Shown here piece by piece: positions 4,129 to 14,489 of a DNA stretch of 14,489 nt (the stretch's first letter is position 1; every line of letters starts with the position of its first letter). Source of the stretch: Chloroflexia bacterium (GTDB lineage: Bacteria > Chloroflexota > Chloroflexia > DTKN01); assembly GCA_034433695.1 (NCBI GenBank), contig DAOUAK010000139.1, positions 1-14,489 on the forward strand, written 5' to 3'. The notes beneath the pieces are model-generated. The model had not been told where the DNA came from and ran no database searches. It worked only from the letters and a program-made list of their open reading frames with translations. The translations under genes were made by a program, and so were the position numbers.

Positions 4129-4197
4129 GAGATGTCGCCTATGCACACCCTTCACCCGGTAGCCCCTTCCGGGCATCGCCCGGCCGGGACCGTCGCC

Positions 4198-4440
4198 TTA
4201 TGGCGTCGGCGTGACGACCGGCGTGGGAGGGGCCGGCATCGTGGGTGGGACGGGGGTCAGGGTCGGGATGAGGAACCGCCCCGGCACCTCGGTCCAGGGC
4301 AACGGCGTGGGTAGGGGAGCCTTCCAGGCGCAGGAGCGGGGCCAGATAACCACCAGAATCAGCACGGCCAGAACGACGGCCACCAGGGCCAGGAGTTCCA
4401 GCCGGCCGCTCCAGGAGTTGTTCGCTTTCCGTGTACCCAT
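4198..4440 (-). CDS. Small (80 aa) single-pass membrane protein with a Pro/Thr-rich C-terminal tail
   Basis: ATG at 4440 (minus) preceded by GAAGGAGA 5 nt upstream. MGTRKANNSWSGRLELLALVAVVLAVLILVVIW is one TM helix; the tail is PLPTPLPW..PTLTPVPPTMPAPPTPVVTPTP. It is the C-terminal part of the longer spurious ORF 4198..5040 and convergent with the HEPN gene. Confidence 0.45.
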   Translation of the reverse strand: MGTRKANNSWSGRLELLALVAVVLAVLILVVIWPRSCAWKAPLPTPLPWTEVPGRFLIPTLTPVPPTMPAPPTPVVTPTP

Positions 4441-4501
4441 ACGGTCTCCTTCTCTTGCGTTTTGCGCTGCCAGTGTACCACGGGGCAGGAGGGATGTCAA
4501 G

Positions 4502-4530
4502 TTGCACCGGGCCGAATTTTGTGGTATCAT
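4502..4530 (+). promoter_or_regulatory. Sigma70 promoter with extended -10 (TTGCAC-17-TGgTATCAT) driving the leader of the ECF operon
   Basis: ttgcac at 4502-4507, 17-nt spacer, TG at 4522-4523, tatcat at 4525-4530. Predicted TSS about 4537, which is 250 nt upstream of the ecfA1 ATG. Confidence 0.55.
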
Positions 4531-4660
4531 GACTTTGCCACCGACCCCCGGGTGGGCGGTGAGCCAGGGCGGCCGGCGGCCGCAAGTGCAGGCATAGTTC
4601 AGGATCGTCGCTGGGATCGCAGGGCGACCGAGACGGCGAGGTGGCGATGGAAAGAGCATC

Positions 4661-4689
4661 ATCCTCCGGGGAGCCCTGGAGGATTTTTT
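4661..4689 (+). terminator. Rho-independent terminator inside the ECF-operon leader
   Basis: ATCCTCCGGG (4661-4670), loop GAGC, CCCTGGAGGAT (4675-4684). This is a 10-bp stem with one G-U, followed by TTTTTT (4684-4689). It lies about 125 nt downstream of the predicted TSS and about 100 nt upstream of ecfA1. Confidence 0.6.
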
Positions 4690-4786
4690 GTGGGGATCTC
4701 CCCCTTTTCCCCGGCCGGTTGGCCGCTTCTCCCCTCGTCTGCCGACGTCTCCCTTCCTTCCCCGGAGAAACAGGTAGGCGTGGAGG

Positions 4787-5650
4787 ATGGACGAACCCCT
4801 GATCTGCGTCCGGAACCTGCATTTTGCGTACCCTGCCGGCGGGTCTCTCCGGCCGGCGCTCAACGGCATTGACCTGGACATCTGGCCGGGCGAGTATATC
4901 GCCCTCATCGGCCCCAACGGCTCCGGCAAGACAACTCTGGCCCGCCACCTTAACGCCCTGCTTCTGCCCACCGAGGGGGATGTCTGGGTACAGGGAATGA
5001 ACACAAAGGACCCACACTGCTGGCAGGCGATTCGCCGCACGGTGGCAATGGTCTTTCAGAACCCGGACAGCCAGGTCGTCGCCACGGTGGTGGAGGAGGA
5101 CGTCGCCTTCGGCCCGGAGAACCTGGGGGTGCCGGAGGAGGAGTTGCGTCGCCGGGTGGACTGGGCGCTGGAGGTGGTCGGCCTTTCGGCACAGCGGCAT
5201 CGTGCGCCTCAACACCTCTCCGGTGGCCAGAAGCAACGGCTGGCCCTGGCCGGGGCGCTGGCCATGCTGCCCCGCTGTCTGGTGCTGGACGAGGCCACCT
5301 CGATGCTCGACCCGGCCGGCCGGTGGGCCGTCTTGGAGATCGTCCGGGAACTCTATCATCGGGGAATGACCGTCGTTGCCATTACCCAGGATATGGAAGA
5401 GGTTGTCTGGGCTGAGCGGGTCGTCGTCATGGCCGAGGGACGCATCGTCCTTCAGGGTTCGCCCCGCGAGGTGCTGGCGCAGGAGGAAAGGCTGTATGCC
5501 CTGGGCCTGGACGTTCCGCCGCTGGTCCGGCTTTCCCGCGCCTTACATGCCCGTATTCCCGACTTCCCGGACGGCCTGCTGACCCCGGCCGAGTTTGTCG
5601 CGGCCGTCCGGGAGCGTATCCACAGAGGCAGACGATGGACCGAGCCCTGA
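4787..5650 (+). CDS. ecfA: ECF transporter energy-coupling ATPase, first copy (EcfA1/CbiO-like ABC ATPase)
   Basis: Walker A GPNGSGKTT, ABC signature LSGGQKQRLALAGAL, Walker B LVLDEATSMLD. C-terminal region typical of EcfA. 16-bp overlap with the next gene. Confidence 0.9.
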   Translation: MDEPLICVRNLHFAYPAGGSLRPALNGIDLDIWPGEYIALIGPNGSGKTTLARHLNALLLPTEGDVWVQGMNTKDPHCWQAIRRTVAMVFQNPDSQVVATVVEEDVAFGPENLGVPEEELRRRVDWALEVVGLSAQRHRAPQHLSGGQKQRLALAGALAMLPRCLVLDEATSMLDPAGRWAVLEIVRELYHRGMTVVAITQDMEEVVWAERVVVMAEGRIVLQGSPREVLAQEERLYALGLDVPPLVRLSRALHARIPDFPDGLLTPAEFVAAVRERIHRGRRWTEP

Positions 5651-6489
5651 TCGAGGTACACGACCTCCACTATACCTATATGCGCGGGACCCCCCTGGAG
5701 ACGGCCGCCCTCCGCGGCGTCCACCTTGTCGTCCGGGCCGGCGAGATCGTCGGCCTCATCGGGCCAACCGGATCGGGCAAGTCCACCCTTCTCCAGCACC
5801 TGAACGGCCTTTTACGCCCCCAGCGCGGTTCGGTGCGTGTGCTGGGGGAGGACCTCGCCGACCCCCGCGTGGACCTGCGCGACATCCGGAGACGGGTCGT
5901 CCTTCTCTTCCAGAACCCGGAGGATCAGATTTTCGAGCGCTATGTGGCCGACGACGTGGCTTTCGGGCCGCTGAGTTTGGGCCTGCCGCGGGAGGAAGTG
6001 CAGGTGCGGGTGCGCCGGGCGATGGAGGCGGCCGGCCTGCCCTCTTCCTTCGATAACCGGCTCACCTTTGCCCTCAGCGCCGGCGAACGCCGTCGGGTGG
6101 CGCTGGCCGGCGTGCTGGCGTTGGAGCCGGAGGTGCTGGTGCTGGACGAACCGCTGGCCGGGCTGGACCCCCGTGGCCGCCGGGAACTCCTGGCCCTGCT
6201 TCGGGAGTGGCATCGGCGGGAGGGCCGGGCCATCGTCTGGGCCTCCCACTCGATGGAGGAGATCGCCGGCCTGGCCGACCAGGTTTACGTCCTGGTCGAG
6301 GGACGGGTGGTGCTGGAGGGGACCACCCGGGAGGTATTCGCCCAGGGCGAGGCCCTGGCCCGGTGGGGGTTGGAGGTGCCGGTCGTGACCGGGATGTTGA
6401 GGGAACTGGCCCAGGCCGGCCTGCCGGTGCGCGGCGACGCGCTCACTCTGGAAGAGGCCCTCTCCATCCTGGAGGAGGTGCTTCGATGA
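5635..6489 (+). CDS. ecfA2: ECF transporter energy-coupling ATPase, second copy (EcfA2)
   Basis: Walker A GPTGSGKST, signature-like LSAGERRRVALAGVL, Walker B LVLDEPLAGLD. Stop TGA at 6487-6489 overlaps the ATG at 6486 of the next gene. Confidence 0.9.
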   Translation: MDRALIEVHDLHYTYMRGTPLETAALRGVHLVVRAGEIVGLIGPTGSGKSTLLQHLNGLLRPQRGSVRVLGEDLADPRVDLRDIRRRVVLLFQNPEDQIFERYVADDVAFGPLSLGLPREEVQVRVRRAMEAAGLPSSFDNRLTFALSAGERRRVALAGVLALEPEVLVLDEPLAGLDPRGRRELLALLREWHRREGRAIVWASHSMEEIAGLADQVYVLVEGRVVLEGTTREVFAQGEALARWGLEVPVVTGMLRELAQAGLPVRGDALTLEEALSILEEVLR

Positions 6490-7340
6490 GCGATTTTGAG
6501 GTATTGCGCTCCCTCTCTTTCGGCCAGTACCTGCCTGCCGGCTCGCCTCTGCACCGGCTGGACCCCCGGGTCCGATTGACCGGCATCCTCCTGCTCATGC
6601 TGGCGCTGATGGCCTGTGCCCGGCTGACCATCGCCTTTCTGGGGCTGACGCTGGTACTGGGCCTGTTCGGCCTGGCCCGCCTCCCGCTGGGCTATGGACT
6701 CCGCGGACTCCGGCCTCTTCTGCCCCTCTTTGGCTTCGTCCTGGTCCTGCAGCTGCTCTTTTACCCCCATGAAGCCGCCGTTGCTGAAGGCAGCGCCGTC
6801 GTGTGGCAATGGGGACCGATCCTCATCAGCGCCGCCAGCCTGCTCGATACCGCCTCCATTCTGCTGCGCATGGTCGCCATCGCCCTTCTTCTGACGCTCC
6901 TCACCGCCATCGCCGATACCACGGACCTGGTCCACGCCGTGGAGGGGATGTTGCGGCCCCTGCAGCGGCTACATCTGCCGGCCCACGAACTGGCCCTGAT
7001 GGTAGCGATCACGCTGCAATTTATCCCCCTTCTGGGGCGGGAACTGGAACGTCTGCTCAAGGCCCAGGCAGCGCGGGGGGCCGATTTCGGCCGCGGGCGG
7101 GGCAACTTTTTCACCCGTATACGCCGGATGCTGCCGCTCCTGATTCCCCTTTTCCTCGCCGCCCTGCGTCGGGCCGAGGAACTGGCCCTGGCGATGGAGG
7201 CACGGGGGTATGCGGGTGGACGAGGACGGACATCCCTGGTGCGTCTACAGATGCGGCCGGCCGACTTCCTGGCCCTGGCCCTATCCCTGGCCATCACGGC
7301 CCTGGTATTCTTTCTGGATCGAGGGGTTATGCCGCTCTAA
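6486..7340 (+). CDS. ecfT: ECF transporter transmembrane T component (EcfT/CbiQ family)
   Basis: ORF track 6207..7340. The true start is ATG 6486 (MSDFEVLRS..), which overlaps the ecfA2 stop. Multi-TM protein with the characteristic Arg-rich coupling helices (ARGADFGRGRG, LRRAEELALAMEARGY). Confidence 0.85.
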   Translation: MSDFEVLRSLSFGQYLPAGSPLHRLDPRVRLTGILLLMLALMACARLTIAFLGLTLVLGLFGLARLPLGYGLRGLRPLLPLFGFVLVLQLLFYPHEAAVAEGSAVVWQWGPILISAASLLDTASILLRMVAIALLLTLLTAIADTTDLVHAVEGMLRPLQRLHLPAHELALMVAITLQFIPLLGRELERLLKAQAARGADFGRGRGNFFTRIRRMLPLLIPLFLAALRRAEELALAMEARGYAGGRGRTSLVRLQMRPADFLALALSLAITALVFFLDRGVMPL

Positions 7341-7407
7341 AACGCGAGAAGGTGTAAACCCGACCCAACTGTCTGACCCGTATCTTGAAGAAGAAAAGGA
7401 GGTTGCC

Positions 7408-8250
7408 ATGAAAATCACCACCCGTCAGATCGTCGTTACTGCCGCCCTGAGCGCCATCGCTATCGTGCTGGGTGCTACCCGCGTCGGCTTCATCCCCTTT
7501 GTGCTGGGCATCGCCATCACCGTTATGCACATCCCGGTGATCATCGGAGCCGTCCTGGAGGGCCCACTGGTGGGTACGATGATCGGCTTCCTCTTTGGCC
7601 TGTTCAGCCTCATCTGGGCCTTTGTCGCACCCACCGGGCCTGGAGACATCTTCTTCCAGAACCCGCTCATCTCCGTCCTGCCGCGCCTGTTCATCGGCAT
7701 CCTGGCCTACCTGGCCTACCGGGCGCTTCGGGAGCCTCGGCCCTGGAAGGTCTATATCGCCGCCGGGGGAATCCTCGCTGTGGTGGCCATCGCCCTGGTC
7801 CTGACCTACGCCACCCCCCTTCTACCCGACTATGCCAGGGCCGTGGAGCAGGAGCCCGGGCAAATCGTCCCCACCTGGCAGATCATCGTGCTCGTCGCGC
7901 TGGCCATCCTGGTGGTCGTCCTGGCCGTCGGCGTATACCTGGCCTTTCGCCACCGGGTGCTGGAACGCTGGGGGGAAATTCTGGCCATCGGCGCGGCAGC
8001 CGTCGTCGGCACGCTGACCAATACGGTGCTGGTCCTGGGGAGCATTGGGGTAGTGGGCCGGCTGGAGCCGCTGGCCGGGCTGGGCAAGGTGCCTCCTCTT
8101 CCCTGGAGTTTCCTGCTGGCCGTCGGTCTGACCAACGGCATCCCCGAGATCGTCGCCGCCGTCGTGATCACCGTCGCCGTGGTCGCGGCCTGGAAGCAGA
8201 TCGAGTTCGGTTATCGCGGTGCCCGCAACATGCGCACACGCAACACGTAA
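7408..8250 (+). CDS. ECF transporter substrate-specific (S) component. By context (coaX immediately downstream) a candidate pantothenate S component (PanT-like). Unusually long at 280 aa with about 8 predicted TM segments.
   Basis: ORF track 7210..8250. Start ATG 7408 (MKITTRQIVVTAALSAIAIVLG..) with GGAGG at 7398-7402. The N-terminus resembles ECF S components (BioY/PanT style). The C-terminal half adds extra hydrophobic helices and an RNMRTRNT tail. Confidence 0.6.
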   Translation: MKITTRQIVVTAALSAIAIVLGATRVGFIPFVLGIAITVMHIPVIIGAVLEGPLVGTMIGFLFGLFSLIWAFVAPTGPGDIFFQNPLISVLPRLFIGILAYLAYRALREPRPWKVYIAAGGILAVVAIALVLTYATPLLPDYARAVEQEPGQIVPTWQIIVLVALAILVVVLAVGVYLAFRHRVLERWGEILAIGAAAVVGTLTNTVLVLGSIGVVGRLEPLAGLGKVPPLPWSFLLAVGLTNGIPEIVAAVVITVAVVAAWKQIEFGYRGARNMRTRNT

Positions 8251-8279
8251 CGCGCACCACGCAACCCGCACCACGCAAC
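8224..8279. repeat. Short degenerate tandem repeat GCAC(C)ACGCAAC, two exact 12-mers and one degenerate copy, spanning the S-component stop and the coaX upstream region
   Basis: gcaccacgcaac at 8254-8265 and 8268-8279; gcacacgcaacac at 8233-8245. Confidence 0.5.
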
Positions 8280-8292
8280 ACGGAGGACTCCC

Positions 8293-9078
8293 ATGCTCCT
8301 CTGCCTCGACATCGGCAACACCAACATCGTCCTGGGTCTGTACCAGGGGGAAAGGTTGCTCCACCACTGGCGGATTGCCACCGAGCGCGAGCGTACCACC
8401 GACGAGTACGCCGCCCTCTTCCTGACGCTTCTGGCCCATGCCGGCCTGGCGCATTCATCCATCCACGGTGCCGCCATCGCCAGCGTCGTCCCTCCCCTCA
8501 CGGGGGCCTTTGTGGGCCTCTGTCGGCGCTACCTGGAGGTGGACCCGCTGGTGGTGGATGCCGGCGTGCGTACCGGCGTGCGCCTGCGCATCGAGAACGC
8601 CCGCGAGGTCGGGGCCGACCGGGTGGTCAACGCCGCTGCCGCCTTCCGGCGCTACGGTGGGCCGGCCTGCGTGGTGGACTTTGGCACGGCTACCACTTTC
8701 GACGCCATCTCCGCCGAGGGCGATTACCTGGGCGGCGCCATCGCCCCGGGCATCGCCATCGCGGCCAAGGCGTTGACCGAGCGCACGGCCAAACTGCCCC
8801 AGGTGGAACTTGTCCCTCCCCCCCAGGCCATCGGCCGGAACACCGTTCAGAGTATGCAATCGGGCATCCTCTTCGGCTATGTGGGCCTGGTGGAGGGGAT
8901 GGTGGCCCGCTTCCGGCAGGAACTCGGTCCGGAGATGCGGGTCATCGCTACCGGCGGGCTGGCCGAACTCATCGCCCGGGAGACCGACGTCTTCCAGGCG
9001 GTGGACCCCTGGCTGACCCTGGAGGGCCTGCGCCTTATCTACGAACTGAACCGGGGGGAAAAGGCCTCCGGCCGGTAG
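8293..9078 (+). CDS. coaX: Type III pantothenate kinase (CoaX/Bvg accessory factor family)
   Basis: N-terminus MLLCLDIGNTNIVLGLY, plus GADR..VN and VDFGTATTFD acetate/sugar-kinase fold motifs. GGAGG at 8282-8286 is 6 nt before the ATG. 261 aa. Confidence 0.9.
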   Translation: MLLCLDIGNTNIVLGLYQGERLLHHWRIATERERTTDEYAALFLTLLAHAGLAHSSIHGAAIASVVPPLTGAFVGLCRRYLEVDPLVVDAGVRTGVRLRIENAREVGADRVVNAAAAFRRYGGPACVVDFGTATTFDAISAEGDYLGGAIAPGIAIAAKALTERTAKLPQVELVPPPQAIGRNTVQSMQSGILFGYVGLVEGMVARFRQELGPEMRVIATGGLAELIARETDVFQAVDPWLTLEGLRLIYELNRGEKASGR

Positions 9079-9280: not shown

Positions 9281-9694
9281 TTAGCCCGGAACGGCCTTGA
9301 GCGGGTTGGCTCCCAACTTCTGCACCCGCTCGGTCATCTCCTGCACCGCCGCAGCGAAGGAATAGCCCTGCGAACCGGTCACAAAAAAGATTTCCACCCG
9401 TTCCCCGCCCAATCCCACCTCGTCCAGGATTTTCTTGCTCCGGCCGACCCGCTTTTCGGCGCGCAAATTGCCTTCCAGGTGATGGCAGGTGCCCTTGGTG
9501 CAGGCCACCACCATGACCGCGTCGGCCCCCTGTTCCAGGGCTTTGAGGATGTAGAGGACATCCACCTTACCGGTGCAGGGAAGTTTGACCACCTTGACGT
9601 CCGCCGGATACTGGATGCCGGTGGTGCCGGCCATATCCACCGAAGTATAGCCACAGTAGATGCAGGTAAAGACCGTGATCTCGGGCATTTCCAT
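9281..9694 (-). CDS. mvhD: MvhD/FlpD-like iron-sulfur protein (methyl-viologen-reducing hydrogenase delta-subunit family)
   Basis: MEMPEITVFTCIYCGYTSVDMAG...VVKLPCTGKVDVLYILKALEQGADAVMVVACTKGTCHHLEGN carries the conserved Cys pattern of MvhD. Start ATG overlaps the hdrA stop (TGATG) and is preceded by an AAGGGGGAAA RBS. The ORF track's longer 9281..9943 frame is upstream read-through. Confidence 0.8.
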   Translation of the reverse strand: MEMPEITVFTCIYCGYTSVDMAGTTGIQYPADVKVVKLPCTGKVDVLYILKALEQGADAVMVVACTKGTCHHLEGNLRAEKRVGRSKKILDEVGLGGERVEIFFVTGSQGYSFAAAVQEMTERVQKLGANPLKAVPG

Positions 9695-12600
9695 CACTTT
9701 CCCCCTTCTTCTGGAAGCCAATCCCCCAAAACGGCCATTTCGGGGACGATGATCTGCTCGTCCCGGTAAAGCGTCAACTGGATGGCCTTGGCCGGACACT
9801 CCCCGGTGCAGGTGCCGCAGCCCTGGCAACGGCCCGGTTCGATATAGGCCGCCCCCCGAAGGCCGCCCACGCCGGTGCGCGTAGGGTCGATGACCGGGAC
9901 GTCGAAGGGGCATACCCGCACACAGGTCAGGCAGCCCACACACTTGTCAGGGTCCACCACGGCCGCCACCCCGCCGACTTCCAGGACGTCCCGGGAAAGG
10001 ATGGTCAGGGCCCGGCCGGCCGCCCCCTGCGCCTGGGCGATGGCCTCTTCGATGAACTTGGGGTAGTGGGCCATCCCGCACAGGAAGATGCCCTCGCGCA
10101 GAAAGTCTATGGGGCGCAACTTGATGTGGGCCTCCATGAAGAAGCCCTCCGGTGAAAGGGGAACCCCTAAAACCCTGCTCAGGTGTTCCGTGCTGGGGTC
10201 CGGCTGGACGCTCATGCTCAGCACCAGCGCGTCCGGGTGGATCACCAGTTTCTCCCCCAGCGAGAGGTCGGTAGCCCGCACCTCCAAGCGGCCGTCTGTC
10301 GCCTGCACCTGCGGGGGATTTTCCTCATCGTAGCGCACAAAGAGCACCCCCTGCCGCCGGGCTTCGGTATAGTACTGCTCGCGGAAGCCGTAGGTGATTA
10401 GGTCCTTGTAGAGGACATAGATGCGCGCCTTGGGGTTGAGCCGCCGGATCCGGAGGGCATTCTTCACCGTGTTGGTGCAACAGATGCGGCTACAATAGTC
10501 GTAAGGGGCGTCGGGCGGCCGTACACATTGGATCATCACCACCGTGTTCATCTGGGCCACCCGGCCGGGGTTGACCAGGATCAGGCGCTCCAATTCCTGC
10601 TGGGTCATCACCCGCTCGTGTTGGCCCAGGAGGTAGACCGAACCGTGAAATTCCTGCCCGCCGATAGCCACGATGGTTACTCCGTGCTCAACCCCGACCC
10701 GATGCCGGCGGGCCGGATCGTGGCGATGGACCTCGATGGTGGAACGAAAGTTGCCCACAAAGCCTTCGTGGCGCACCACTTCGCTGTCGGTATACACGGT
10801 GATGCGCGGTTCCTGCAGGACCTGATGTACCAGGGAAAAGAGGTAGGCTTGTGGGTCGGCCCCTTCGGCCGTAGAGTAAAGGGCGCGGACGTGGCCGCCC
10901 AGGACATCGCTCCGCTCGACCAGGGTGACGGGGTAGCCGGCGGCGGCGATGGTCAGGGCAGCGTTGATTCCGGCGATACCGCCCCCGATCACCAGAGCCC
11001 GCTTGGCCACACCCACCGGGGTGCGGCGCACCGCCTCCAGCCGGCGTGCCCGGGCCGCGGCCATCCGCACCAGTTCCCGGGCCTGGCGGGTGGCCGCCGC
11101 CGGCGCTTCGCGATGCGCCCAGGCGCACTGGGAACGGAGGTTGGTCATCTCCAGGAGGTACGGGTTCAGGCCGGCCTGCCGCAGGATGTTCTGGAAAAAG
11201 GCCTCATGCGTGCGCGGACTGCAGGCCGCGACGACCACCCGGTTCAACCCCTGCTCCAGGATGGCCTGGCGGATTTTGGCCGGAGATTCGCCGATGCAGG
11301 CGTAATCCATTTCCTCGACATAGACCACATCCGGCAGGGTACGGGCGTAGGCGGCTACGGCCGAGGTATCCACCGTGCCGGCAATTTCGCGGCCGCAGCG
11401 ACAGAGAAAGAGGCCCACCCGGGGGGCTTCCCCGGAGATGTCCCGTTCCGGAGGATATGTCGGGGGTCTGGTCGCCGTGCCGGCCACATCGGCCAGGAGT
11501 TCCATACAACGGGCCGCCGCTGCGCTGGCCTCGGCCACCGTTTCGGCGATCTCCTTAGGGCTGGAAAAGGCCCCGGCCACAAAGATGCCCGGCCGGTTGG
11601 TGTCCACCGGGGTGAATTTGCCTGTAAGACAAAAACCATACTCGTTCAGGGCAATCCCCAGTTCCTGGGCCAGGGCTACGGCCTGCAGCGGCGGTTCCGA
11701 GCCGACCGAGAGCACCACCAGGTCGAAGCGTTCCTCATGCAGTTGCCCCTTTTCGTCCTGATAGCGGAGGAACAGGTCATGGGTAGAAGGGTCTTCGCGG
11801 ATGTTGGAGATACGGCAACGGGTATAGCGGACGCCGTAGAGGTCGCGGGAACGGATAAAGTAGGCGTTGTACTCCTTGTTGAAGGTACGTTCATCCATCA
11901 TAAAGATATGGCATTCGGCTTCTGGGTCGCGCTGGCGGGCCAGGACGGCCTCTTTGGTGGCGTACATACAACAGATAGAGGAACAGTAATCATGCTGGCG
12001 GTCGCGGGAACCGACACATTGGAGCCAGGCGATCTTCTTGGGAGGCCGACCGTCGGAAGGCCGGCGGGCCAGCCCCTCCGTCGGGCCCGAGCGGCTGACC
12101 AGCCGCTCGAATTGCAGGGAGGTGACCACATTGGGATAGCGCCCGAAGCCCAGTTCTTCGCTGAGAAGTGGGTTGTAGAGCGTAAAGCCGGGGGCCAGGA
12201 TAATGGCCCCGACCTCGACCGTTTCCTCCCAGGGTTCTTCCTGGAGGTTGATGGCCCGGGTGGGGCAAACCTCCTGGCACTTTCCGCAACCTTCGCAATA
12301 AGGCCCCTTGTCCACCAGATACACATCGGGCAGGGTACGCGGGGAGACCTTGTAAACCGCCCGGCGGGCGCTCATGCCCAACTGGAACTCGCTGGGGAGT
12401 TCCACCGGGCAGACCCGGGCGCACTCCCCGCAACTGGTACAGCGCGCCACATCCACATAGCGTGGGTAGTGGCGCAGACGCACATGGAAGTGGCCCGGCT
12501 CTCCTTCGACCTGGCTGACCTGGGTCAACGTCATGACCCGGATGTTGGGGTGAGTGCTGTGGTCCAGGAAGACGTAAGAGATGGCCGGCCGGGTGCAACC

Positions 12601-12810
12601 GTAGCCGTGTTCGGCCGTGCCCCGGCAGAGGACACAGTCATGGGAGGGAAACATAAACCCCAACTGGGCGATCTTGCCCCCCAGGGCCGGGGTGGATTCG
12701 ATCAAATAGACCTTCAGGCCGGCCTCGGCCAGGTCGTAGGCGGCGCGCATCCCGGCCACGCCGCCCCCTACGACCAGAACCGCCCCCACTTTTTTCCGAA
12801 GTTCTGTCAC
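9694..12810 (-). CDS. hdrA: Giant (1038 aa) HdrA-like flavo-iron-sulfur protein. Domain order: HdrA module 1 (FAD domain with inserted 2x[4Fe-4S] ferredoxin), internal MvhD-like domain, HdrA module 2, C-terminal 2x[4Fe-4S] ferredoxin.
   Basis: Two dinucleotide-binding motifs (VLVVGGGVAGM and ALVIGGGIAGI). Two HdrA signature regions (IAWLQCVGSRD..YCSSICCMY and VVMIQCV..YDYCSRICC). Four CxxCxxCxxxCP ferredoxin motifs. Internal LFLCRCGREIAG..VVVAACSP resembles MvhD. GTG start at 12810 with GGAGG 9 nt upstream. Confidence 0.85.
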   Translation of the reverse strand: MTELRKKVGAVLVVGGGVAGMRAAYDLAEAGLKVYLIESTPALGGKIAQLGFMFPSHDCVLCRGTAEHGYGCTRPAISYVFLDHSTHPNIRVMTLTQVSQVEGEPGHFHVRLRHYPRYVDVARCTSCGECARVCPVELPSEFQLGMSARRAVYKVSPRTLPDVYLVDKGPYCEGCGKCQEVCPTRAINLQEEPWEETVEVGAIILAPGFTLYNPLLSEELGFGRYPNVVTSLQFERLVSRSGPTEGLARRPSDGRPPKKIAWLQCVGSRDRQHDYCSSICCMYATKEAVLARQRDPEAECHIFMMDERTFNKEYNAYFIRSRDLYGVRYTRCRISNIREDPSTHDLFLRYQDEKGQLHEERFDLVVLSVGSEPPLQAVALAQELGIALNEYGFCLTGKFTPVDTNRPGIFVAGAFSSPKEIAETVAEASAAAARCMELLADVAGTATRPPTYPPERDISGEAPRVGLFLCRCGREIAGTVDTSAVAAYARTLPDVVYVEEMDYACIGESPAKIRQAILEQGLNRVVVAACSPRTHEAFFQNILRQAGLNPYLLEMTNLRSQCAWAHREAPAAATRQARELVRMAAARARRLEAVRRTPVGVAKRALVIGGGIAGINAALTIAAAGYPVTLVERSDVLGGHVRALYSTAEGADPQAYLFSLVHQVLQEPRITVYTDSEVVRHEGFVGNFRSTIEVHRHDPARRHRVGVEHGVTIVAIGGQEFHGSVYLLGQHERVMTQQELERLILVNPGRVAQMNTVVMIQCVRPPDAPYDYCSRICCTNTVKNALRIRRLNPKARIYVLYKDLITYGFREQYYTEARRQGVLFVRYDEENPPQVQATDGRLEVRATDLSLGEKLVIHPDALVLSMSVQPDPSTEHLSRVLGVPLSPEGFFMEAHIKLRPIDFLREGIFLCGMAHYPKFIEEAIAQAQGAAGRALTILSRDVLEVGGVAAVVDPDKCVGCLTCVRVCPFDVPVIDPTRTGVGGLRGAAYIEPGRCQGCGTCTGECPAKAIQLTLYRDEQIIVPEMAVLGDWLPEEGGK

Positions 12811-12849
12811 AGAAGTGCACCTCCGTCGTGAAGTCTTTCACCAGGAAAT

Positions 12850-12878
12850 ATTATACGCCCGGGGGAAAGAAATGTCAA
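12850..12878 (-). promoter_or_regulatory. Perfect consensus sigma70 promoter TTGACA-17-TATAAT on the minus strand driving hdrA-mvhD
   Basis: Minus strand reads ttgaca (12878-12873), tttctttcccccgggcg (17 nt), tataat (12855-12850). Predicted TSS about 33 nt upstream of the hdrA GTG. Confidence 0.55.
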
Positions 12879-12895
12879 AAGAGGAATGCACCTAT

Positions 12896-12924
12896 TTGCA
12901 TCTCCTCCGGCCCTGTAGTAAAAT
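12896..12924 (+). promoter_or_regulatory. Sigma70 promoter TTGCAT-17-TAAAAT for polA, back-to-back with the hdrA promoter
   Basis: ttgcat at 12896-12901, 17-nt spacer, taaaat at 12919-12924. RBS GAAAGGGG at 12941-12948, then ATG at 12957. Confidence 0.5.
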
Positions 12925-12956
12925 GAATTTGTAGCGTGGAGAAAGGGGCAATAGCC

Positions 12957-14489
12957 ATGTCTGAGAGGCCCAAACTGGTTTTGATCGACGGCCACGCCCT
13001 CCTCTATCGGGCTTATCACGCCCTGCCGGCCACGATGGTGACCTCCAAGGGGGAGCCGACCAACGCCCTCTACGGCTTCCTTTCCACCGTCCTCAAGGTG
13101 CTGGCCGAGGAGCAACCCGACCATGTGATCGTCTGCATGGACCGGGGGAGGACCTTCCGCCACGACCTCTATAAGGAGTACAAGGCTCACCGCGCCAAGA
13201 TGCCCGATGACCTGCGGCCGCAGGTGGAACGGGCCGAGGAGGTCCTGAGCGCCCTGGGCATCCCCTCCTGCGGTCTGGACGGATACGAGGCCGATGACCT
13301 CATCGGCACGCTGGCCCGCCAGGCGGAGGAGGCCGGCCTGGATACCCTCATCATCACCGGCGATAGCGATGCCCTGCAACTGGTCCGCGAACACGTCCAC
13401 GTGCTCGTCCCCGGCCGTAAATACAGCGACACCCTCCGTTACGACCCGGCCCGGGTGCAAGAGCGCTACGGCTTCGAGGCCGAGCGCCTGGTCGAGTTCA
13501 AGGCCCTCAAGGGGGATCCCTCCGATAACATCCCCGGCGTGCCGGGGATCGGAGAGAAGACGGCCGAGGAACTGGTGCGTAACTTGGGTTCCCTGGAGGC
13601 CATCTACGAGAGGCTGGAGCAGATTCCCCCCCGCTATCGCAAGGCCCTGGAGGAGAACCGGGAACAGGCCTTTCTCAGCCGCGACCTGGCCCGAATCCGC
13701 ACCGATGCCCCGATCCGGCTGGACCTGGAGGGCAGCCGCTTCGGCGCCTACGACCGCGAGGCCGTGGTGCGCCTCTTCCGCGAACTCGAGTTCCGGAGCC
13801 TTCTGGAGCGGCTCCCGGGCCGGCGGGAGGCCGAGCCGGCCCCGATCTCCCGCCAGTTGCCCCTCTTTGCCGAAGGCACCGCCGCCCTGCCGGAACCGAC
13901 GGAGCATCCGGCCTACCGCATCGTCCGGGATGAGGCCGCCCTGAAGGAGATGCTGGCCGCCCTGGGCTCCGGCCCCCTGGCCCTGGATACCGAAACCACC
14001 TCCACCCAGCCGATGGATACCGAACTGGTAGGGATTTCCCTGGCCCGAGGCGACGGCCGGGCCTGGTACATCCCGGTCGGCCACCGCACGCCCGACGGCC
14101 GGCGACTTCCGGAGCAACTGCCCTGGGAGACGGTCTGCCGGCACCTTTCCCCTCTCCTGGGGGATGCAGGCATCCCCAAGATCGACCACCATGCCAAGTT
14201 CGACACCCTGGTGCTGGCCGAGCAGGGGCTGGAGGTGCGCGGCATCACCTTTGACACCTTAATTGCCGCCTACCTGGTGGGCGGGCGTTCGGGCCTGGCC
14301 GAGGGCGAAGGAGAAGCCGAAAGCGGCTCCGCCGCCCTGCGGAAGGACCGTTCCATCGGGCTGAAGAACCTGGCCTTCCGCTACCTGGGCGTGGAAATGC
14401 GGGACATTTCCGAAATCCTGGGGAAGGGAAAGGCCCAGCGCACGATGGACCGGGTGCCGATCGAGGTGGTCGGCCCGTATGCCTGTGCC
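12957..14489 (+). CDS. polA: DNA polymerase I, 5' part (5'-3' exonuclease/FEN domain and start of the 3'-5' exonuclease domain). It runs off the window end.
   Basis: Not in the ORF track because there is no stop inside the window. MSERPKLVLIDGHALLYRAYHAL..GEPTNALYGF..YKAHR..GYEADDLIGTLA..ITGDSDALQL is a classic PolI 5' nuclease. LALDTETTS is the Exo I motif DxE. Confidence 0.9.
   Translation, partial: MSERPKLVLIDGHALLYRAYHALPATMVTSKGEPTNALYGFLSTVLKVLAEEQPDHVIVCMDRGRTFRHDLYKEYKAHRAKMPDDLRPQVERAEEVLSALGIPSCGLDGYEADDLIGTLARQAEEAGLDTLIITGDSDALQLVREHVHVLVPGRKYSDTLRYDPARVQERYGFEAERLVEFKALKGDPSDNIPGVPGIGEKTAEELVRNLGSLEAIYERLEQIPPRYRKALEENREQAFLSRDLARIRTDAPIRLDLEGSRFGAYDREAVVRLFRELEFRSLLERLPGRREAEPAPISRQLPLFAEGTAALPEPTEHPAYRIVRDEAALKEMLAALGSGPLALDTETTSTQPMDTELVGISLARGDGRAWYIPVGHRTPDGRRLPEQLPWETVCRHLSPLLGDAGIPKIDHHAKFDTLVLAEQGLEVRGITFDTLIAAYLVGGRSGLAEGEGEAESGSAALRKDRSIGLKNLAFRYLGVEMRDISEILGKGKAQRTMDRVPIEVVGPYACA

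What the first reader, a model, noticed from the sequence alone, without database searches (positions are those of the whole stretch)
4441..4786. Candidate attenuator or riboswitch leader upstream of the ECF-panT-coaX operon
An extended -10 promoter (4502-4530) is followed about 125 nt later by a strong intrinsic terminator (10-bp stem with GAGC loop at 4661-4684, then T6). After the terminator comes a roughly 70-nt CU-rich tract (4700-4765), and only then the first gene, ecfA1 at 4787. A promoter followed by a structured leader and a terminator is the classic layout of riboswitch or attenuator control. ECF S-component genes are often riboswitch-controlled for TPP, FMN, cobalamin, preQ1 and THF. 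To my knowledge no pantothenate- or CoA-responsive RNA has been described, and this leader matches none of the riboswitch consensus sequences I can recall (thi-box, B12-box, T-box and others). The 4600-4660 segment could form alternative anti-terminator pairings, for example GGAGG near 4638 with the CCTCC 5' arm of the terminator. An alternative reading is an independent small RNA of about 150 nt that ends at this terminator.
Basis: partly seen in the sequence, partly recalled or inferred. Interest (0 to 1): 0.7.

Follow-up and report, generated by a model that had tools for sequence, protein, structure and literature searches.

The report
Known pan RNA motif leader
The leader in front of this pantothenate-uptake operon is a divergent copy of the already described "pan" RNA motif (two small hairpins, then a terminator), a regulatory element whose signal is still unknown, so it is a known kind of element and not a new riboswitch class.

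Summary
A conserved promoter (4502-4530), a structured leader of about 150 nt, a strong terminator (4661-4689), a CU-rich spacer and then ecfA1-ecfA2-ecfT-panT-coaX are all present and are conserved in relatives.

The leader is not a new RNA class. It is a tandem "pan" motif (Rfam RF01749, Weinberg 2010). It has two hairpins (4536-4565 and 4605-4639), and each is a stem interrupted by two bulged A residues.

Rfam's own model misses the window, with no hit even at E<=10. A covariance model I built from 58 other pan RNAs, leaving out the window's clade, matches 4534-4642 full-length at 40.9 bits (E about 2e-9). It also scores the three loci that pass Rfam's pan threshold at 53-85 bits.

In 130 loci the motif sits upstream of PanG-type reductase, panB, panC, panD or ECF-PanT-coaX genes. 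In 111 of the 130 a terminator follows it.

In most members the 3' strand of hairpin 2 is complementary to the terminator's 5' arm, which would act as an antiterminator. In the window's clade this pairing is no better than chance.

Published in-line probing of a single-hairpin Geobacter pan RNA with pantothenate, CoA and beta-alanine showed no binding, so the effector (protein or metabolite) is still unknown.

Verdict: a new, divergent member of a known orphan cis-regulator, of modest interest.

The parts
4502..4530 (+). Promoter of the leader and operon: -35 TTGCAC (4502-4507), 17-nt spacer, TG (4522-4523), -10 TATCAT (4525-4530). The expected transcription start is about 4536-4538, which is the first bases of hairpin 1.
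   Evidence: Sequence read. Conserved with a TATAAT -10 in L081-L084, L206-L209, L211 and L212. Not listed by the consensus scan because the -35 matches only 3 of 6 bases. The start site is inferred, not measured.
4536..4565 (+). pan hairpin 1. Stem a 4537-4538/4563-4564; stem b 4539-4543/4557-4561; bulged A4544 (5' side) and A4562 (3' side); stem c 4545-4547/4554-4556.
   Evidence: Found by the descriptor search and aligned to hairpin 1 of model R2. The family consensus is aGCCAUCG-A-CC..GG-CGGUG-A-GCu, and 9 of its 10 pairs show changes on both sides. It is also present in the minimum-energy fold.
4569..4583 (+). Clade-specific GC-rich hairpin in the linker (GCGGCC GGC GGCCGC). It replaces the AU-rich linker of typical pan RNAs.
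   Evidence: Folds. The stem is kept with changes in L082 (GCGGC/GCCGU), L084 and L208. It appears as an insertion relative to model R2. It is probably one reason the Rfam model fails here.
4605..4639 (+). pan hairpin 2. Stem a 4605-4610/4634-4639; bulged A4633; stem b 4611-4615/4628-4632 with a G4613 x G4630 mismatch where most members have a U.G pair; bulged A4616; stem c 4617-4620/4624-4627; loop AGG.
   Evidence: The core TCGCTGGGATCGCAGGGCGACCGAGAC equals the second hairpin of RNAs that pass Rfam's pan threshold (L121 alignment). Matched by models R1 and R2. Folds alone at -19.1 kcal/mol.
4640..4660 (+). Spacer between hairpin 2 and the terminator. It contains GGUGGC (4640-4645), complementary to GCCACC (4537-4542), and a small GAUG/CAUC hairpin.
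   Evidence: Its role is unproven, and its sequence varies among clade members.
4661..4689 (+). Intrinsic terminator: 10-bp stem, GAGC loop, then a T run.
   Evidence: It starts 25-26 nt after hairpin 2; 71 of 103 other loci with a terminator have it 20-29 nt after hairpin 2.
4690..4786 (+). Remaining 5' UTR, including the CU-rich tract 4700-4765. GGAGG 4782-4786 abuts the ATG.
   Evidence: 79% C+T. Not conserved beyond L081. The predicted fold that covers GGAGG has a z-score of only -1.58.
4787..9078 (+). Regulated operon: ecfA1 4787-5650, ecfA2 5635-6489, ecfT 6486-7340, PanT-like S-component 7408-8250, coaX (type III pantothenate kinase) 8293-9078.
   Evidence: Pfam, NCBIfam, nearest solved structures 4RFS_S and 6ZG3_C. 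The same gene order is found in L081-L085. The S-component start codon was read.

Best explanation
The intergenic region encodes a tandem pan-motif leader RNA (Rfam family RF01749) that acts in cis as a transcription attenuator for the ecfA1-ecfA2-ecfT-panT-coaX operon.

Transcription starts about 7 nt after the -10 element. The first roughly 105 nt fold into two hairpins, each a stem interrupted by two bulged adenosines lying 5 base pairs apart on opposite strands. An intrinsic terminator follows 25 nt later.

When a pantothenate/CoA-pathway signal is high, an effector binds and stabilises the two hairpins. The terminator then forms and most transcripts end near 4689, so uptake and phosphorylation of pantothenate are switched off. 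When the signal is low, read-through expresses the operon.

In most family members the switch works as follows. The 3' strand of hairpin 2 (CCGAGACGGC) can pair instead with the 5' arm of the terminator, which makes an antiterminator.

I think the effector is more likely a still-unidentified, probably dimeric, RNA-binding protein than a metabolite bound directly by the RNA.

Shown: family membership, the tandem architecture, the gene association, the terminator, and the antiterminator complementarity at family level. Inferred: the direction of regulation, the transcription start, the nature of the effector, and how the hairpins talk to the terminator in this particular clade.
For: - Membership. 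The hairpin 2 core is near-identical to the second hairpin of RNAs that pass Rfam's pan gathering score (L099 43.4 bits, L121 41.6, L093 40.1). Model R2, built from 58 other tandem RNAs without the window's clade, matches the window at 4534-4642 over all 93 positions at 40.9 bits, E 2.4e-9, and this is the only hit in the window. The same model gives 85, 76.5 and 52.7 bits to the three Rfam-positive loci.
- Architecture. [quoted passage not shown] - Structure support. 95.7% of cells are paired, 12 of 22 pairs show changes on both sides, and 0 of 500 shuffles reach the observed values.
- Gene association. Of 102 first downstream ORFs, 51 are Rossmann-like/DUF2520 (47 with both domains), 15 EcfA, 10 PanB, 6 PanD, 6 peptidase S58 and 4 PanC. 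ECF-S-coaX operons follow the motif in L001, L121, L128, L134 and others.
- Attenuation. A terminator-like hairpin follows the motif in 111 of 130 loci. The duplex between the hairpin 2 3' strand and the terminator 5' arm has a median of -12.6 kcal/mol, against -7.3 for shuffled arms, and 87% of 103 loci are at or below -9.
- Local conservation. The whole layout is conserved in ten distinct relatives with 67-95% EcfA1 identity.
- Protein rather than metabolite. [quoted passage not shown]
Against: - Rfam's own pan model gives no hit on the window even at E<=10 on a 121-nt stretch.
- In the window's clade the canonical antiterminator pairing is weak (-4.1 to -7.3 kcal/mol) and no better than shuffled arms. 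The alternative GAGG...CCUC hairpin is no better than shuffled interiors. The coupling of sensor to terminator is therefore not demonstrated for this locus.
- Hairpin 2 carries a G x G mismatch where most members have U.G.
- No candidate binding protein is known or visible in the operons.
- The two hairpins have different conserved sequences, which fits a symmetric homodimer poorly.
- The broad spread with constant gene association (three phyla according to Weinberg 2010) is just as typical of true riboswitches.
- The published negative probing used a single-hairpin RNA and only three compounds, and the authors said the construct may have been inactive.
- Part of the covariation evidence is circular. 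Hairpin 1 copies were selected with a pairing descriptor, and stem b of hairpin 2 was fixed by the search pattern.
Confidence: 0.55

Rival explanations
1. It is a true riboswitch. The two pan hairpins together bind a small molecule of the pantothenate/CoA pathway directly, for example pantoate, 4'-phosphopantothenate, 4'-phosphopantetheine, dephospho-CoA or an acyl-CoA. Ligand binding stabilises hairpin 2 and so favours the terminator, with no protein needed. The two small hairpins would cooperate, as they do in guanidine-II riboswitches.
For: - The architecture is the classic one of sensor, antiterminator and terminator. The sensor's 3' strand competes for the terminator's 5' arm in 87% of 103 loci.
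- The gene association with one pathway is strict across many lineages.
- The conserved nucleotides sit at bulges and flanking pairs.
- No regulator gene is linked to the motif.
- The negative binding test covered only pantothenate, CoA and beta-alanine, on a single-hairpin deltaproteobacterial RNA.
- From my own knowledge, mini-ykkC tandem hairpins were also once thought too simple and turned out to bind guanidine.
Against: - The three most obvious ligands gave no modulation.
- I found no validation in the literature 16 years after the description. The 2022 reviews still list CoA as lacking a riboswitch.
- The hairpins are very simple and their loops are not conserved, so a loop-loop pocket of the guanidine-II type is unlikely.
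Confidence: 0.3
2. It is an independent small RNA of about 150 nt, transcribed from the 4502-4530 promoter and ending at the 4661-4689 terminator. It would act in trans, and the ECF operon would have its own promoter in the CU-rich spacer.
For: The promoter and a strong terminator delimit a discrete unit of about 150 nt. A 97-nt spacer separates the terminator from ecfA1. Terminated leader transcripts would in any case accumulate as a small RNA.
Against: - The motif is always on the same strand as pantothenate genes and directly upstream of them in the loci examined.
- In many loci only 20-90 nt separate it from the start codon, and some have no terminator at all, for example L001.
- The antiterminator complementarity only makes sense for control in cis.
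- The promoter scan found no promoter-like site between 4690 and 4786.
- The spacer is not conserved among relatives.
Confidence: 0.05
3. The hairpins are not sensors. They would be 5'-terminal stabilising stem-loops, or a constitutive partial terminator that merely sets the expression level, with no response to a signal.
For: Hairpin 1 starts at the predicted 5' end of the transcript. In the window's clade no convincing alternative pairing links the hairpins to the terminator.
Against: Generic stabilisers would not keep about 20 invariant nucleotides, including four bulged A residues, across distant lineages. They would also not be restricted to pantothenate genes. The family-wide antiterminator complementarity argues for a switch.
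Confidence: 0.07

Closest known systems
pan RNA motif (Rfam RF01749; Weinberg et al. 2010, Genome Biol 11:R31)
   Same: Each hairpin is a stem interrupted by two conserved bulged A residues. The hairpins are in tandem. The element lies in the 5' UTR of pantothenate-related genes and occurs in Chloroflexota. The hairpin 2 core is almost identical to that of RNAs passing the Rfam threshold.
   Different: - It falls below any reportable Rfam score.
- It is GC-rich (72%), with an extra GC hairpin inserted in the linker.
- It has a G x G mismatch where U.G is usual.
- The downstream operon is an ECF-PanT transporter plus coaX, whereas the original description lists panB, panC and panD.
- The antiterminator complementarity typical of the family is degenerate here.
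Guanidine-II (mini-ykkC) riboswitch
   Same: Two small, simple hairpins in tandem, upstream of functionally coherent genes, and long regarded as too simple to be a metabolite sensor (my own knowledge).
   Different: Guanidine-II is recognised through conserved ACGR loops that kiss. In pan RNAs the loops vary, and the conserved features are bulged A residues and the flanking stem pairs. No ligand is known for pan. There is no sequence similarity and no Rfam hit.
Protein-mediated transcription attenuation of the PyrR type (pyr operon leaders of Bacillus)
   Same: A conserved hairpin in the leader, whose stabilisation by a bound factor would free the downstream segment to form a terminator. The logic of binding hairpin, antiterminator and terminator is the same as the family-wide pattern found (comparison from my own knowledge of PyrR).
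   Different: No binding protein is known for pan. The sites are tandem hairpins with bulged A residues and not a PyrR binding loop. Rfam's PyrR family does not match.
Riboswitch-controlled ECF S-components (TPP-thiT, FMN-ribU, THF-folT, preQ1-queT)
   Same: A vitamin-specific ECF transporter placed under a leader RNA with a terminator. The control matches the substrate's own biosynthetic regulon, because the same RNA precedes panB, panC, panD and panG-type genes elsewhere.
   Different: Those aptamers have proven ligands and complex folds. None of them matches here. Here the whole ECF module plus coaX is in the regulated operon, not just the S-component.

Membership tests
pan RNA motif (RF01749) | [quoted passage not shown] | tested here: met
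   Hairpin 1 has bulged A4544 and A4562. Hairpin 2 has bulged A4616 and A4633. In each, the two A residues are 5 bp apart on opposite strands (descriptor search; model alignment; definition quoted).
pan RNA motif (RF01749) | Two hairpins in tandem (most members) | tested here: met
   Model R2 aligns both hairpins, 4534-4642, over positions 1-93 of 93. The descriptor picked up a hairpin upstream of hairpin 2 in 106 of 130 loci, against about 34 expected from shuffles.
pan RNA motif (RF01749) | Score at or above Rfam's gathering threshold (36.2 bits) with the curated model | tested here: not met
   No pan hit on the whole window at gathering. None at E<=10 on 4380-4850 or on 4528-4648. Of the 18 loci scanned, only 3 reached the threshold, so the curated model is insensitive to this type of pan RNA.
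pan RNA motif (RF01749) | Demonstrable homology to accepted members | tested here: met
   Model R2 was built without the window's clade. It gives 40.9 bits (E 2.4e-9) to the window and 85.1, 76.5 and 52.7 bits to L099, L093 and L121, which pass Rfam's threshold. The hairpin 2 cores can be aligned base for base.
pan RNA motif (RF01749) | Position in the 5' UTR of pantothenate (vitamin B5) genes | tested here: met
   The downstream operon encodes an ECF module, a PanT-like S-component and type III pantothenate kinase. These are pantothenate genes, though not the panB, panC and panD named in the original description.
pan RNA motif (RF01749) | Stems supported by covariation | tested here: met
   Tested at family level on alignment A3. 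12 of 22 pairs show changes on both sides, 95.7% of cells are paired, and 0 of 500 shuffles reach this. Versions with the 3' partner slid by 1-3 columns give 26-50% paired. Caveat: selection by descriptor and by search pattern inflates the pairing.
Riboswitch (metabolite-binding RNA in general) | Direct, selective binding of a small-molecule ligand by the RNA | not testable with these tools
   [quoted passage not shown] No positive report was found.
Riboswitch or attenuator expression platform | Mutually exclusive terminator and antiterminator, with the antiterminator sharing a strand with the sensor | tested here: inconclusive
   Family-wide this is met: median duplex -12.6 against -7.3 kcal/mol for shuffled arms, with 87% of 103 loci at or below -9. 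In the window and its clade it is not met: -4.1 to -7.3, no better than shuffles. The alternative hairpin is not significant either.

The most novel reading that the evidence does not exclude
The tandem pan hairpins could be a genuine riboswitch for an untested intermediate of the pantothenate/CoA pathway, such as pantoate, 4'-phosphopantothenate, 4'-phosphopantetheine, dephospho-CoA or an acyl-CoA. Both hairpins would be needed for binding, which would explain why the single-hairpin Geobacter construct showed nothing. If so, this would be the first natural RNA sensor for the CoA branch of metabolism. The many Chloroflexota examples found here, with their clear terminator/antiterminator platforms, would be the constructs to test.
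Probability: 0.27. Interest if true: 0.85.

Novelty: new member of a known kind. Interest (0 to 1): 0.35.

Why it matters
For annotating this window the result is ordinary. The leader can be labelled a pan-motif cis-regulator, and its presence independently supports reading the S-component as PanT and the operon as a pantothenate salvage unit.

The wider value lies in what the comparison turned up:

- Rfam's pan model misses most GC-rich or Chloroflexota-type members; only 3 of 18 scanned loci passed.
- The family is much larger than described.
- Its regulon extends to ECF-PanT-coaX operons, PanG-type reductases, S58 peptidases and an Opp-like ABC transporter linked to coaX.
- Most members carry an explicit terminator/antiterminator switch tied to hairpin 2.

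Reviews from 2022 still name CoA as a conspicuous gap among riboswitch ligands. The pan motif is the one described RNA tied to that pathway, and its effector has never been found. These constructs and this regulon list make the question (protein or metabolite, and which one) easier to attack.

Tried and rejected
1. **Known Rfam families.** There was no hit at gathering on the whole window. Only noise appeared at E<=10 on 4380-4850 and on 4528-4648 (MEG8, mir-3960, Atu_Ti1). That looks like novelty, but the homology route below overturned it.
2. **Exact-protein look-up of EcfA1.** The protein is not on record, so I used relatives instead.
In 8 clade members the fold is -3.5 to -8.8 kcal/mol with z-scores from -1.2 to +1.3 against shuffled interiors. 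Rejected as unsupported.
4. **Canonical antiterminator in the window's clade.** The duplex between the hairpin 2 3' strand and the terminator 5' arm is -4.1 to -7.3 kcal/mol, no better than shuffles. Pairing the hairpin 2 5' strand with the arm gives -6.8 to -12.8 against -7.7 to -9.1 for shuffles, which is also not convincing.
5. **Long-range helix GCCACC 4537-4542 with GGUGGC 4640-4645.** It is strong in the window, L081 and L082 and weaker in L084, but broken in L083 and absent family-wide (mean -4.9 against -4.4 for shuffles). I left it as unexplained and made no use of it in the mechanism.
6. **Leader peptide.** An ATG at 4529 opens a 22-codon frame, but it lies inside the -10 element. 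In L082 the corresponding frame stops after about 10 codons (read). Rejected.
7. **Stability of the whole leader.** The z-score is -0.76 for 4530-4790 and -1.99 for 4534-4692, which is not informative on its own.
8. **CU-rich tract as a conserved element.** It is not conserved beyond the 95% relative. The fold that covers the SD has z = -1.58.
9. **Literature on the function of pan RNAs.** I found nothing beyond the original description and mentions in transcriptome papers. The 2024 B. subtilis CoA-pathway paper does not mention an RNA element.

Full report
**Observation**

The 345-nt intergenic region 4442-4786 lies between a divergently transcribed small ORF (ATG at 4441 on the minus strand) and ecfA1 (4787).

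On the plus strand it holds a -35 TTGCAC (4502-4507), a 17-nt spacer, TG (4522-4523) and a -10 TATCAT (4525-4530). The consensus scan does not list this promoter because the -35 matches only 3 of 6 bases. The promoter is nevertheless kept in all ten distinct relatives read, whose -10 is TATAAT.

The scan does find the terminator: stem 4661-4684, 10 pairs, loop GAGC, then a T run.

The tract 4700-4765 is 79% C+T, which puts it in the top 0.04% of windows of that size in this sequence.

Pfam and NCBIfam confirm ecfA1, ecfA2, ecfT, an ECF S-component and a type III pantothenate kinase. The best matches of the S-component among solved structures are 4RFS chain S and 6ZG3 chain C. From my own knowledge these are the two ECF-PanT structures.

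**Known-family search and relatives**

Rfam 15 gives nothing at gathering thresholds on the whole window. At E<=10 on the leader it gives only noise. Taken alone that would suggest novelty.

I therefore fetched relatives. The closest genome-collection EcfA1 homologues are Chloroflexota at no more than 60% identity. The protein database holds relatives at 67-95% identity. Their contigs carry the same ecfA1-ecfA2-ecfT-S-coaX operon where the contig reaches that far.

In these relatives the whole leader is conserved: the promoter, a first hairpin (GCCACCG-A-CCC...GGG-CGGUG-A-GC), a variable GC hairpin, a 35-nt core, and the terminator.

A blastn/nhmmer pass over the 80 more distant loci showed that the core alone (TCGCTNGGATC...GACCGAGAC) recurs just upstream of ecfA in the distant Chloroflexota MAGs L017 and L001. 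A first covariance model added L009 and L013.

**Metagenome scan**

I took the first ORF downstream of the motif in 102 loci and scanned them against Pfam. The families that matched were:

| Downstream gene family | Loci |
|---|---|
| Rossmann-like (47 of these also match DUF2520) | 51 |
| EcfA | 15 |
| PanB | 10 |
| PanD | 6 |
| Peptidase S58 | 6 |
| PanC | 4 |

The Rossmann-like plus DUF2520 architecture is that of the PanG-type ketopantoate reductase, according to PMC4572677 citing Miller 2013. tblastn with the window's proteins finds ECF-S-coaX operons behind the motif in L001, L121, L128 and L134, and partial ones in about ten more loci. The element is thus tied to pantothenate synthesis, uptake and phosphorylation.

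**Identification**

Scanning 18 of these loci with Rfam gave hits to RF01749, the pan motif, in L099 (43.4 bits), L121 (41.6) and L093 (40.1), against a gathering score of 36.2. The alignment of L121 shows that my core is the second hairpin of the tandem model. It also shows that what I had first read as internal loops are paired, so the structure is one long stem with one bulged A on each strand.

[quoted passage not shown] In the window, hairpin 2 is 4605-4639 with bulged A4616 and A4633. Hairpin 1 is 4536-4565 with bulged A4544 and A4562.

A descriptor search picked up a hairpin of this shape upstream of hairpin 2 in 106 of 130 loci, against about 34 expected from shuffles. Most of those lying 20-60 nt upstream share the consensus aGCCAUCG-A-CC..GG-CGGUG-A-GCu.

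**Membership test**

I built a tandem covariance model (R2) from 58 sequences, leaving out the window and its close relatives. With all filters off it finds one hit in the window: 4534-4642, full length, 40.9 bits, E 2.4e-9. The same model scores the three Rfam-positive loci at 85.1, 76.5 and 52.7 bits.

On the 58-sequence alignment, 95.7% of cells are paired and 12 of 22 pairs show changes on both sides. No shuffle out of 500 reaches these values, and versions with the partner slid by 1-3 columns drop to 26-50% paired.

Two caveats apply. The hairpin 1 copies were chosen with a pairing descriptor, and stem b of hairpin 2 was fixed by the search pattern. That part of the evidence is therefore partly circular.

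The curated Rfam model fails on the window for three probable reasons: the window RNA is 72% GC, it carries an inserted GC hairpin (4569-4583) in the normally AU-rich linker, and it has a G x G mismatch at a position that is U.G in most members.

**Mechanism at family level**

A terminator-like hairpin follows the motif in 111 of 130 loci. In 71 of the 103 non-clade loci with a terminator it starts 20-29 nt after hairpin 2; in the window it starts 25-26 nt after.

The terminators share a sequence (typically UGCCUUCUCUGG...UCGGAGAAGGCA). Their 5' arm is complementary to the 3' strand of hairpin 2 (CCGAGACGGC). The median duplex energy is -12.6 kcal/mol, against -7.3 for shuffled arms, and 87% of 103 loci are at or below -9.

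When the terminator's 3' arm is blocked, 5 of the 9 non-clade examples folded switch from hairpin 2 to this antiterminator.

So hairpin 2 and the antiterminator exclude each other. Anything that stabilises hairpin 2 favours termination, which is the expected feedback for pantothenate genes. This step is an inference from sequence.

**Mechanism in the window's clade**

In the window's clade the same pairing is only -4.1 to -7.3 kcal/mol, no better than shuffles.

A clade-specific complementarity exists between GCCACC (4537-4542) and GGUGGC (4640-4645). It is strong in the window, L081 and L082 and weaker in L084, but broken in L083 and absent in the family at large.

How sensor and terminator communicate at this particular locus is therefore open.

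**Effector**

[quoted passage not shown] They saw no modulation, while noting that the construct may have been inactive. That RNA is of the single-hairpin kind that the authors say is typical of deltaproteobacteria.

I found no later functional study. Two 2022 reviews still list CoA as lacking any riboswitch.

I favour an unidentified RNA-binding protein, roughly 55:30 over direct metabolite sensing. The reasons are the simple hairpins, the conserved stem sequence and the negative probing. The evidence does not exclude a riboswitch.

**Verdict**

The cis-regulatory reading is supported. The claim of a new RNA class is not: this is a divergent, Rfam-invisible member of the known orphan pan motif, here controlling an ECF-PanT-CoaX operon.

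The independent-sRNA reading is unlikely. The motif sits on the same strand as pantothenate genes and directly upstream of them in the loci examined, often only 20-90 nt from the start codon. The scan found no promoter-like site between the terminator and ecfA1.

Noticed in passing
window 4472-4500 (- strand) and 4139-4441 (- strand): A back-to-back divergent promoter. TTGACA (4500-4495), a 17-nt spacer and TG-extended TACACT (ending at 4472) on the minus strand abut the -35 of the leader promoter. It precedes a 100-aa ORF with a good RBS and no Pfam or NCBIfam match. The promoter sequence and a 68-80-aa ORF are conserved in relatives.
   Followed up: partly
L086 7245-8132; L167 3791-4765 (-); 51 of 102 loci: The commonest gene directly behind pan RNAs in metagenomes is a Rossmann-like + DUF2520 protein, the PanG-type ketopantoate reductase architecture. 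The original description listed only panB, panC and panD.
   Followed up: partly
L097 2662-3642; L132 6193-7215; L148 1295-2305 (-): Peptidase family S58 (DmpA/BapA-like aminopeptidase) genes lie directly downstream of pan RNAs in 6 loci. They might supply beta-alanine, but no function was tested.
   Followed up: no
L183 4881-6557; L202 4252-5865 (-): Here the pan RNA precedes an SBP_bac_5 (Opp/Dpp-type) ABC substrate-binding protein, with coaX about 3.6 kb further down the same strand. This may be a non-ECF uptake system for pantothenate or a precursor, under the same control.
   Followed up: no
L082 6001-6975; L083, L084, L206, L207 likewise: Gene callers give EcfA1 of the relatives a roughly 35-residue N-terminal extension (321-324 aa against 287). 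It starts just after pan hairpin 2 and reads through the leader terminator, so it is almost certainly a mis-called start.
   Followed up: partly
window 4537-4542 and 4640-4645: GCCACC (the 5' strand of hairpin 1) is perfectly complementary to GGUGGC immediately 3' of hairpin 2. The fold that uses this helix is 3.5 kcal/mol better than the two-hairpin fold. The pairing is conserved in some clade members but not all, and not in the wider family.
   Followed up: partly
window 4700-4765 and 4731-4786: An extreme CU-rich tract (79% C+T). The predicted fold pairs CCCCUCGUCUGCC (4731-4743) with GGUAGGCGUGGAGG (4773-4786), which covers the GGAGG that directly abuts the ATG. The z-score is only -1.58, and the tract is replaced by unrelated GC-rich sequence in relatives at 83% identity or less.
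   Followed up: partly
window 4613 (pairs with 4630); same position in L081-L084, L206-L212: All members of the window's clade have G where most of the family has U (CUGGGAUC against CUUGGAUC). This turns a conserved U.G wobble in stem b of hairpin 2 into a G x G mismatch. The same variant occurs in a few unrelated loci (L100, L120, L127, L140, L189, L196).
   Followed up: no
window about 9281-12810 (- strand); L081 4801-7172: Downstream of coaX, on the opposite strand, lie a FlpD-domain protein and a 1038-aa FAD/NAD-binding protein with 4Fe-4S ferredoxin domains (heterodisulfide-reductase-like). A radical-SAM DUF512 protein follows at 12807-14192. None of these is related to the leader.
   Followed up: no
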